Shown one piece after another: positions 1,011 to 5,498 of a DNA stretch of 64,000 bases. Numbering within the stretch: position 1 is the stretch's first letter; every line of letters begins with the position of its first letter. Origin of the DNA: Eledone cirrhosa (Eukaryota); NCBI GenBank assembly GCA_964016885.1, contig OZ024757.1, positions 18,476,001 through 18,540,000 on the forward strand. The letters are read 5' to 3'. The translations under genes were made by a program, and so were the position numbers. Below the pieces are notes generated by a model, which was given only the letters and a program-made list of their open reading frames with translations, had not been told where the DNA came from and made no database searches.

Positions 1011-1054
1011 GATTGTATAAGAGCTTTGTATCATGTCTACATACATATATACAT

Positions 1055-1365
1055 AGGATTAGAATACTGGAGCGTGTTTGAGTCAAACACCCTCTTCGTA
1101 TTATAGAAATGACAGTAAAAGGTATAGCTCAATGCAGTTAAACAGAGCCAAAAAATTAAGATTTATATAATTTTGTTGTTTATTATATAATTTTGTTGTT
1201 TATTATTTGTTATAAGTGTTTCTTGTAATTATATCATAGTATTGCCTCATGTATATTGAGTAGATGTATTAGTATTATTTTTCACTATTACCATGCTTAT
1301 TTTTAATATTCAAACTTCTAATAGGGCTTAATTTCTGTGTAATAGAACATAGATATGTGTATTGT

Positions 1366-1402
<37 letters not shown>

Positions 1403-1826
1403 ACATATATACATGTATATATTGTACCTTTTGATTTTTAATTTGGAATTTTAATGTTGGTATAAATATATTATTATTATAATGTATTATATTGTGTTAT
1501 ATATAATTCCTGCTCTATATAACCAAATTTGTTTAGATTTAGGTTGGTAGCTTTGGACTATATTTGTAATATGGTTCTTAATGTTATCTACATCCTTAGT
1601 TATTATAATTTTATTATTTTTATCTTTATTTTCATTTTTATTATCGTATATCTTTGCAAGACATTAGTGTATGTACACTCCATATTCTTCAGAGTTTCTG
1701 GCTTGTATCTGCCGATATTACCTCTTGTTGTTTTGATTGCCCTGATGAGTCCTTAATAGGACGAAACATTGTCGGCTAATAAAAACTTTTGATGTATTAA
1801 AGGATTCTTTGTTTTACTCTCTTAAT
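1055..1826. mobile_element. Hammerhead-bearing short repeat, family H1 (Penelope pLTR-like), with inverted 3' tail
   Basis: 1692-1826 matches 42722-42855 directly; 1055-1160 is the reverse complement of 42850-42958. Confidence 0.75.
1736..1780 (+). ncRNA. Type I minimal hammerhead ribozyme (H1)
   Basis: GCC-CTGATGA-GTCCT taat AGGAC-GAAAC-att-GTC^GGC: full core, 5-bp stem II, short stem III, GUC triplet, AATAAA at 1778-1783. Confidence 0.9.
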
Positions 1827-1981
1827 ACATATATACATACATAGATATATACATGCATACACATATACACACACACATACATACATACATACATACATAC
1901 ATACATACATACATACATACATACATACATACATACATACATACATACATACATACATACATACATACATACATACATACA
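1827..1981. repeat. (TACA)n microsatellite
   Basis: Direct reading. Confidence 0.98.
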
Positions 1982-4013: not shown

Positions 4014-4045
<32 letters not shown>

Positions 4046-4420
4046 ATTGTTTCTACTATTGGCACAAGGCCAGCAAATTACCCAGTACATTACTGGTACT
4101 TTATTTTATCCACCTCGTAAGGATGAAAGGCAAAACTAATCTCTGAGGGATTTGAAATCAAACCATAACGGGTCATAACTCTATGCTGCAAAGCATGGCG
4201 TCCGACCCTCTACCGATACTGCCAATCCATGACTAATAATTGTTTCTACTTTTGGTACAAGGCCAGCAAATACTCCAGTACATTACTGGTACGTTATTTT
4301 ATCGACCCCGTAAGGATGAAAGGCAAAGTTAACCTCGACGGAATTTGAACTCAGTCCGTAAAAGGACGTAACTGTGCTGCAAAGTATGGCGTCCGACCCT
4401 CTACCGATGCTGCCAATCCA
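4046..4420 (-). mobile_element. Two adjacent tRNA-derived SINE copies
   Basis: On the minus strand: A box TGGCAGTATCGG, B box GTTCAAATCC-like, body ctttgcctttcatccttacggggtcgataaaataaagtaccag shared with about 20 copies in the window. Confidence 0.9.
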
Positions 4421-4505
4421 CACCAGTAATGTACTAGGGTAGATTTAATCGACTTCCCCATTCGAAATGTTATCTTTATCAGTGCGATGACAAAATCAGT
4501 AGAGC

Positions 4506-4705
4506 NNNNNNNNNNNNNNNNNNNNNNNNNNNNNNNNNNNNNNNNNNNNNNNNNNNNNNNNNNNNNNNNNNNNNNNNNNNNNNNNNNNNNNNNNNNNNNN
4601 NNNNNNNNNNNNNNNNNNNNNNNNNNNNNNNNNNNNNNNNNNNNNNNNNNNNNNNNNNNNNNNNNNNNNNNNNNNNNNNNNNNNNNNNNNNNNNNNNNNN
4701 NNNNN
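4506..4705. other. Assembly gap (200 N)
   Basis: Run of n. Confidence 1.
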
Positions 4706-4868
4706 TAAAATTTATTCTGGGATCAATTTTTGTCGACTTAATCAACGCTGCACTCCAGCATGACCGGACGGAGTCTAATGACTGAAACCAGTAAAAGATT
4801 GAAATTAAAATATTTCAGTCAATTTTAGCTGACGCAATCACCATTAATCGATCAGTTGTTTTTATCGA

Positions 4869-5498
4869 TTGGAAATACAATAATTGTTCCTACTTTAGGC
4901 ACAAGACCAGCAATTACCCCTAGTGCATTACTGGTACTTTATTTTATCGACCCAGTAAGGATGAAAGGCAAAGTCAACCTCGGAGGGATTTGAACTCAGA
5001 TCGTAAAGGGACGTAACTATGCTGGAAAGCATGGCGTCCGACCCTCTACCGATACTGCCAATTCACCGCCCTTTTGGAAATACAATAATTGTTTCTACTT
5101 TTGGCACAAGGCCAGCAATTACCCAGTGCATTACTGGTACTTTATTTTATCGACCCCGTAAGGATGAAAGGCAAAGTCAACCTCGGAGGGATTTGAACTC
5201 AGATCGTAAAGGGACGTAACTATGCTGGAAAGCATGGCGTCCGACCCTCTACCGATACTGCCAATTCACCGCTCTTTTGGAAATACAATAATTGTTTCTA
5301 CTTTTGGCACAAGGCCAGCAATTATCCCAGTGCATTACTGGTACTTTATTTTATCGACCCCGTAAGGATGAAAGGCAAAGTTAACCTCGGCGGGATTTGA
5401 ACTCAGAATGGCAAGGACCGTAACTCTATGCTGGAAAGCATGGCGTCCGACCCTCTACCGATACTGCCAATCCGCCGCCCTTTTGGAAATACAATAAT
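4869..5498 (-). mobile_element. Head-to-tail triplet of the tRNA-derived SINE
   Basis: Three ~204-bp units bounded by four copies of ttggaaatacaataat. Confidence 0.92.

What the first reader, a model, noticed from the sequence alone, without database searches (positions are those of the whole stretch)
1055..1826. Recurrent architecture: the element's 3' tail is inverted and placed in front of the ribozyme-bearing part (H1 example)
The colinear copy at 42722-42958 shows the normal order. Here the forward part stops at cttaat (1826), and the missing tail sits upstream as a reverse complement (1055-1160), overlapping by the same cttaat. The same geometry recurs in H2 (28497-28727, 37227-37560), H3 (44644-44942), H4 (37589-37686) and H6 (41566-41652). 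Inverted pLTR segments are known for PLEs. Five families with overlaps ranging from a few nt to ~78 nt suggest one shared mechanism such as twin priming or fold-back template switching (inference).
Basis: partly seen in the sequence, partly recalled or inferred. Interest (0 to 1): 0.75.

Follow-up and report, generated by a model that had tools for sequence, protein, structure and literature searches.

The report
Two-start Penelope insertion, tail-only arm
This is a real, young insertion of a Penelope-like jumping gene in its already described back-to-back layout, and across the genome its two halves end at two fixed points 101 bases apart, which likely means both cut DNA strands prime copying of the element's RNA, each just before its own small hairpin.

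Summary
Observation confirmed. 1055-1826 is one insertion with a 12-bp target duplication. It derives from the 3' end of an autonomous 4.86-kb Hydra-type Penelope-like element (898-aa RT + GIY-YIG ORF, type I hammerhead). Read on the minus strand it is the published PLE layout: an inverted 5'-truncated copy lacking the tail, then a sense copy with the tail, here cut down to the tail alone. The breakpoint is fixed: 21 of 25 inverted arms start at 'cttaat' (site 2), 101 nt before the normal end (site 1). H2, H3 and H6 also have fixed second sites; H4 does not fit. The 'overlap' is only how far the sense arm ran (-97 to 2,109 nt). Fold-back fails: in 25 of 48 pairs the inverted arm reaches further than the sense arm. 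Both H1 sites lie 6 nt before the same bulged hairpin, 53 and 154 nt past the predicted ribozyme cut. Best reading: priming from both nicked strands at two hairpin-marked sites (inferred). The layout is known; I did not find this mechanism in print. This scan has reported it before, in this genome and in others.

The parts
1043..1054 (.). left copy of 12-bp target-site duplication ACATATATACAT (14 bp if the shared AT is counted)
   Evidence: TSD peak across copies
1055..1161 (-). sense arm = tail only (unit 4755-4861), ending at start site 1
1127..1148 (-). bulged GCTC...GAGC hairpin beginning 7 nt after site 2 (unit 4768-4789)
   Evidence: window position converted from unit coordinates
1163..1202 (+). 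inner junction: 20-nt tandem duplication of the tip of the inverted arm
1183..1826 (+). inverted arm (unit about 4115-4761), 3' UTR/pLTR of the PLE, ending at start site 2 (cttaat)
1736..1780 (+). type I hammerhead ribozyme, predicted cut after 1773
   Evidence: Rfam RF00163, 31.7 bits (gathering 34), E 1.7e-6
1827..1838 (.). right copy of the 12-bp TSD
42722..42956 (+). colinear single-arm H1 copy of a second subfamily (unit 4628-4862; site 2 at 42855, site 1 at 42956) in (TA)n
28497..28727 (-). H2 two-arm insertion, overlap about 23 nt
37227..37560 (-). H2 two-arm insertion, overlap about 85 nt
44644..44942 (-). H3 two-arm insertion, overlap about 15 nt
37688..37955 (+). colinear H3-family copy (normal order)
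41566..41652 (-). H6 two-arm copy; inverted arm stops about 8 nt short of the family's fixed site
37589..37686 (.). H4 palindrome: both arms end at the same base, no tail; does not show the geometry

Best explanation
The insertion is a two-armed copy of a Hydra-type Penelope-like retrotransposon, likely made when its endonuclease nicks both strands of an (AT)n target about 12 bp apart and each nick primes reverse transcription at a different fixed site of the element RNA. Site 1 (unit 4862) and site 2 (unit 4761) each lie 6 nt upstream of a GCTC-stem-TT bulge-GAGC hairpin, which likely positions the RT (inferred). The two cDNAs stop at independent points and are joined head to head by end joining (inferred). 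This gives an inverted arm without the tail, a sense arm with it, and a TSD. In this copy the site-1 cDNA stopped just past site 2, leaving the tail alone, possibly because it met the second RT on the same RNA (weakly supported). SHOWN: fixed ends, TSD, independent arm lengths, common source of both arms, hairpin spacing. INFERRED: the priming order, one RNA versus two, the role of the hairpin, any dimer.
For: Fixed ends: 21 of 25 inverted arms among 38 tail-selected insertions end at unit 4761-4763. There are 629 site-2 and 1,174 site-1 exact (TA)n junctions, controls 0. Pairing: of the first 84 listed site-2 junctions, 48 pair with a site-1 arm, 33 are single arms, 2 are the two ends of one site2-site2 insertion, and 1 runs into an N gap. 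TSD: interrupted duplications peak at one length, 6 of 55 pairs against 0.07 expected from shuffled flanks (6 of 72 after adding mostly pure-TA pairs). Independence: arm lengths are uncorrelated (rho 0.02, n=48); the inverted arm reaches further 5' in 25, less far in 21; only 4 have inner ends within 25 nt. Same source: 41 rare variants are shared by both arms against 0.19 on permutation (66 pairs). Hairpin: GCTC starts exactly 7 nt after both sites in H1, and an ACTC...GAGT version follows site 2 in H2 and H3. Other families: inverted arms end at one site in 21 of 25 (H2), in 18 of 18 own arms (H3), and within q68-76 in 11 of 17 (H6). Biochemistry of another PLE: both strands are cut and extended, two RT start sites bound the tail, and the protein is predicted to be a dimer (PMC11167929).
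Against: In PMC11167929 the start site did not differ between strands, and no link to inverted copies was tested. In 35 of 48 pairs the sense arm runs through site 2, so on one RNA the arms would have to be copied sequentially or by strand displacement. Shared variants also fit two RNAs from one source locus, or gene conversion between arms. Most flanks are pure (TA)n and give no TSD information; 16 of 22 impure pairs did not match at 14 nt, several fitting only 12 nt or less. The pile-up of sense arms at site 2 is modest: 5 of 19 local ends, p about 9e-4 under a uniform model; none of 30 site-1-selected loci; genome-wide loss 17.5% across site 2 against 11.4% upstream, confounded by a subfamily variant and a longer span. 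The hairpin offset is not exact in H4 or H6, and site-1 hairpins could not be checked for H2 or H3 (no tandem read-through fetched).
Confidence: 0.7

Rival explanations
1. Dual priming: two separate RNA molecules (for example on a dimeric RNP), one copied from each nick, with site 1 and site 2 chosen by strand or subunit.
For: Both arms often copy the same kilobases (overlaps up to 2.1 kb) and their lengths are uncorrelated. One site2-site2 insertion exists. The mechanism is described for L1 (PMC2837659).
Against: 41 shared rare variants and no clear cross-subfamily pairing in a 130-nt test require the same source locus. No facing site1-site1 pair was seen by eye among the first 100 listed site-1 junctions. 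The modest stop at site 2 is easier to explain on one RNA.
Confidence: 0.15
2. Fold-back or self-priming: one cDNA or an antisense RNA folds on itself and copies back (the self-priming proposal of PMC3846280; the first reader's 'fold-back template switch').
For: Some junctions are palindromic (L003, L275). Shared private variants were T>C in 10 of 27 against 10 of 67 unshared (p 0.03), which antisense A-to-I editing could give.
Against: A fold-back of the site-1 cDNA cannot give an inverted arm that reaches further 5' (25 of 48). A fold-back of the site-2 cDNA cannot supply the tail. In the window copy neither arm contains the other. Only 4 of 48 pairs have matching inner ends. 33 site-2 arms stand alone, so site 2 is itself a priming site.
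Confidence: 0.08
3. L1-type twin priming at a chance internal microhomology (AU in the RNA pairing with the AT overhang).
For: Site 2 ends in AT in H1, H2, H3 and H6, and the target is (AT)n.
Against: The RNA is AT-rich throughout, yet the site is fixed in each family. Three arms start 1-2 nt beyond the AT (4762-4763). Equal 6-nt spacing to the hairpin at both sites puts the AT in the templated part.
Confidence: 0.04
4. Assembly artefact or post-insertion inversion.
For: The window's own junction is not spanned by any listed read or contig. The region is microsatellite-rich.
Against: Hundreds of dispersed junctions at one base, a TSD around the whole unit, and raw reads of another study with a tail ending at the same site.
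Confidence: 0.02

Closest known systems
EN+ Penelope-like insertion unit with inverted pLTR, one-sided tail and TSD (Adineta Pen2a, PMC3846280; general scheme PMC8557442 fig. 2; PMC8969392)
   Same: Inverted 5'-truncated copy adjacent to a sense copy, tail on one arm only, partial tandems, short TSD (8-10 bp there), hammerhead in the pLTR.
   Different: Tail is 101 nt in H1 and about 85 nt in H2/H3, against 30-40 bp described (about 35 in H6). TSD is about 12 bp. The published explanation was self-priming or endonuclease resolution.
Hydra clade of C-terminal EN+ PLEs (PMC8557442, section 11)
   Same: DKT, CxCX5C linker, no CCHH in the GIY-YIG core, CxxC and CxH near the C-terminus, canonical hammerhead, (TA)n target.
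   Different: Unit is 4.86 kb against generally <3 kb. The motif is RWR rather than RWK. There is a roughly 100-aa low-complexity insertion after the thumb relative to most homologues.
Poseidon PAc of Anolis (PMC11167929)
   Same: Two internal RT start sites bound the tail; AT-rich target; both strands cut and extended; the ribozyme cut is not the start site.
   Different: There the sites are close together in one AC-rich stem-loop inside the ORF start. Here they are 101 nt apart, each before its own hairpin copy, and upstream of the ORF start.
L1 twin priming / dual priming (as summarised in PMC2837659)
   Same: 5' inversion within a TSD; the window copy, with a few-nt overlap, has exactly that shape.
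   Different: The second priming site is fixed rather than any internal annealing site; arms usually overlap by hundreds to thousands of nt instead of carrying a deletion; there is no poly(A).

Membership tests
EN+ Penelope-like element | Single ORF with RT and C-terminal GIY-YIG endonuclease | tested here: met
   898-aa ORF in L062 with YRDD and VY...YIG, aligned to homologues. Pfam and PDB sequence searches gave no significant hit, so the domain names rest on motifs.
EN+ Penelope-like element | Partial-tandem pLTR, 5' truncation, inverted copies, one-sided tail | tested here: met
EN+ Penelope-like element | Type I hammerhead in pLTR | tested here: met
   (31.7 bits, just under gathering 34; E 1.7e-6); cleavage not tested
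Hydra clade | DKT motif, CxCX5C linker, CCHH absent, CxxC/CxH flanking the C-terminal E/N | tested here: met
   DKT 129, CNCRVSANC 749, one Cys only between VY and YIG, CNLC 847, CPH 875 (features)
Hydra clade | RWK motif | tested here: inconclusive
   RWR at 38; RWK and RWR both occur among homologues
Hydra clade | (TA)n target | tested here: met
Hydra clade | Generally short (<3 kb; descriptive, not strict) | tested here: not met
   unit 4,862 bp with a 2.1-kb 3' region
Hydra clade | RT phylogeny groups with named Hydra families | not tested
   No named reference proteins were held; the paper's supplements were not opened.
Neptune/Nematis | CX2-5CxxC linker and CCHH motif in the EN | tested here: not met
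L1-type twin priming product | Variable internal priming site, near-abutting arms with deletion | tested here: not met
   site fixed; 35 of 48 sense arms pass it
Non-LTR retrozyme (for H1) | Short non-coding tandem unit with hammerhead, no ORF | tested here: not met
   H1 is the 3' end of a coding 4.86-kb unit. H6 does show a 434-439 bp tandem unit.

The most novel reading that the evidence does not exclude
Hydra-type PLEs integrate by programmed twin priming. A staggered double nick of about 12 bp in (AT)n gives two primers, and two copies of one bulged hairpin on a single RNA each load an RT 6 nt upstream. The PLE 'tail' would then be simply the spacing between hairpins, and tail-only copies such as this one would record the first RT colliding with the second.
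Probability: 0.35. Interest if true: 0.72.

Novelty: new member of a known kind. Interest (0 to 1): 0.47.

Why it matters
How PLEs make inverted copies and a one-sided tail is named as open in PMC8557442 and only partly answered in vitro in PMC11167929. This family gives an intact ORF, hundreds of young insertions with base-exact ends, and two hairpins 101 nt apart. That makes the two-site, two-strand model directly testable by mutating one hairpin at a time. Tail-only copies are the most discriminating class, because neither arm can be a copy of the other. The layout itself is ordinary for PLEs.

Tried and rejected
Whole-window Rfam scan was swamped by microsatellite matches; the hammerhead was found by a local scan.

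Ribozyme cut as breakpoint: rejected. The sites are 53 and 154 nt downstream of it, and only 1 of 52 inner ends in unit 4600-4750 lies at 4709, 4 within 4709-4713 (the cluster at 4627-4629 is query bias).

Neptune/Nematis assignment (my first reading): dropped on motifs.

Empty allele or second assembly of the locus: a duplicate contig covers part of the window, but the piece fetched lacked the site, and a flank search found only the window itself above 86%.

Read support for this exact junction: none listed, and no long reads were offered; no RNA holder listed.

TSD in H2 and H3: uninformative (2 single hits among 15 pairs, 0 among 15).

Arm-to-arm identity over 130 nt was too coarse and was replaced by the rare-variant test.

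The H2, H3 and H6 samples and the first H1 sample were selected for full colinear 3' ends and so under-sample tail-only copies.

Of 100 listed site-2 junctions, 84 were analysed (80 fetched plus 4 already held). Two further held ones and 14 unfetched ones were left out.

Literature: searches found no paper applying twin priming or paired hairpins to PLEs. The original twin-priming paper was not held, and older subscription PLE papers are not searchable.

Full report
OBSERVATION. Window 1055-1161 is the reverse complement of the end of the colinear copy (42849-42955, 92.5%), and 1693-1824 matches its start (42722-42853, 92.4%). The forward part also extends upstream through the AT-rich stretch 1183-1700, which belongs to the same element. 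The unit is flanked by a direct repeat, ACATATATACAT, at 1043-1054 and 1827-1838. A type I hammerhead lies at 1736-1780.

WHAT IT IS. Searching with the tail gave pairs of hits about 4.85 kb apart. These are tandem full-length units of 4,862 bp, one with an intact 898-aa ORF. The protein has YRDD, DKT, a CxCX5C linker, a VY...YIG core without CCHH, and C-terminal CxxC/CxH. It has 331 unnamed homologues. These motifs, the hammerhead and the (TA)n target match the Hydra clade as described in PMC8557442 section 11. I took the Hydra lead from earlier notes and checked it by motif, not by tree. On this unit the window copy is a sense arm 4755-4861 plus an inverted arm from about 4115 to 4761.

THE LAYOUT IS KNOWN. 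PMC3846280 (parts 1-4 of 5 read) gives as the typical Penelope structure a direct pLTR, an adjacent inverted pLTR, a 31-bp tail on one of them and a 9-bp TSD, and proposes self-priming. PMC8557442 (passages; section 11) and PMC8969392 (passages) describe the same layout. PMC11167929 (parts 1-2 of 4) shows in vitro that a PLE protein cuts and extends both strands and starts at two sites that bound the tail. I also saw passages of PMC2837659, PMC9977147 and PMC13282606, and part 1 of 5 of bioRxiv 10.64898/2026.07.22.740005. No supplements were opened; those of PMC8557442 and PMC11167929 may bear on tail lengths and end maps.

FIXED ENDS. Among 38 insertions selected on the tail alone (40 hits, two tandem pairs merged), 25 have an adjacent inverted arm. 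Of these, 21 start at unit 4761-4763; the other four are trimmed or nested. Exact junction motifs number 629 for site 2 and 1,174 for site 1, with reversed controls 0. Of the first 84 listed site-2 junctions, 48 pair with a site-1 arm (four of them tiny, assigned by eye), 33 are single arms, two are the ends of one site2-site2 insertion, and one runs into a gap. Site 2 is thus a priming site in its own right. In 30 loci each, inverted arms end at one family-specific site in H2 (21 of 25), in H3 (18 of 18 own arms; four distant or low-identity hits not counted) and in H6 (11 of 17 within 9 nt). Tails are 101 nt (H1), about 85 nt (H2, H3) and about 35 nt (H6).

DISCRIMINATING MECHANISMS. The overlap is not a mechanistic constant. 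It runs from -97 to 2,109 nt and arm lengths are uncorrelated (rho 0.02). In 25 of 48 pairs the inverted arm reaches further 5' than the sense arm, and only 4 have matching inner ends. A fold-back of the site-1 cDNA cannot give the first result, and a fold-back of the site-2 cDNA cannot give a tail. The window copy, where the arms share 6-7 nt, is the cleanest case. Inner junctions show short microhomology or filler (gaps -21 to +69, n=39), as expected for end joining (inference). Interrupted TSDs peak at one length (6 of 55 against 0.07 expected). This length is 14 if the AT of cttaat is counted and 12 if it is templated. I prefer 12 because L034 and L082 fit 12 but not 14, and because of the hairpin spacing. 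Many impure pairs fit neither length, so the stagger may vary. Both arms come from one source: 41 shared rare variants against 0.19 on permutation, with 94 unshared. This cannot separate one RNA from two RNAs of one locus, or from gene conversion.

WHAT MARKS THE SITES. It is not the ribozyme: the predicted cut is 53 and 154 nt upstream, with no pile-up of ends there. Following a lead from earlier notes, I found GCTC...TT-GAGC bulged hairpins starting exactly 7 nt after both site 1 (in tandem read-through) and site 2. Only one other RCTC...GAGY match exists in the unit, and by eye it lacks the inner stem. ACTC...GAGT versions follow site 2 in H2 and H3, where the shared AT letters allow the same spacing. 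H4 and H6 fit less well.

THE TAIL-ONLY CLASS. Five of 48 pairs have the sense arm stopping at 4758-4761 (5 of 19 local ends, p about 9e-4). Raw RAD-seq reads of three runs show a tail stopping at the same place and running into other sequence. However, none of 30 site-1-selected loci do so, a contig shows a tail-only copy in plain TA, and the genome-wide excess is small and confounded (17.5% against 11.4%). A collision with the second RT is therefore possible but weakly supported.

VERDICT. The feature is real and not an artefact, although this junction itself was not read-spanned. It is a new member of a known kind with a known layout. The added value is mechanistic: two hairpin-marked start sites used on opposite strands (0.7), which I did not find in print and which is directly testable. 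The scan has reached the same reading on other DNA (53 notes in at least 15 genomes; several in this genome). Those notes are not counted as support.

Noticed in passing
L330/L331, L313/L327 (H6 family); window 55552-55834: H6 occurs as 434-439 bp tandem units with a hammerhead-like core and no ORF seen, yet has the same two-site footprint: a candidate retrozyme mobilised by PLE machinery.
   Followed up: partly
L191, L278, L074, L279: Arms primed at site 2 run through a whole unit and into the next (up to about 6 kb), so the template is a multimer or circle, or the RT jumps.
   Followed up: partly
L271/L272: One insertion has both arms ending at site 2 (no terminal tail).
   Followed up: partly
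L171, L293, L182, L200: Sense arms of only about 4-30 nt; some apparent single site-2 arms may be pairs with a vanishing first arm.
   Followed up: partly
H1 pairs, unit 4345-4761: Private variants shared by both arms are T>C in 10 of 27 against 10 of 67 unshared (p 0.03): RT error in the source copy or antisense editing.
   Followed up: partly
L062 ORF residues about 490-630: Roughly 100-aa low-complexity insertion between thumb and linker relative to most homologues, reminiscent of the N-rich inserts of Adineta Penelopes.
   Followed up: no
window 37589-37955: H4 palindrome directly abutted by an H3-family copy; H2, H4 and H3 copies are chained through TA tracts from 37227.
   Followed up: partly
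L001, L241 (contig C1446): An unplaced 80-kb contig duplicates part of this window at 100% in two tested stretches (likely haplotig).
   Followed up: partly
window 4037-5498, 19154-19339, 31288-31474, 33680-33864, 46509-46697, 47490-47918, 50981-51164: A dispersed and tandem family of about 185-200 bp units, not examined.
   Followed up: no
window 19613-19721, 53547-53651, 36276-36368, 31184-31287: Short near-perfect palindromes, some shared between loci (19538-19721 with 53465-53651), not examined.
   Followed up: no
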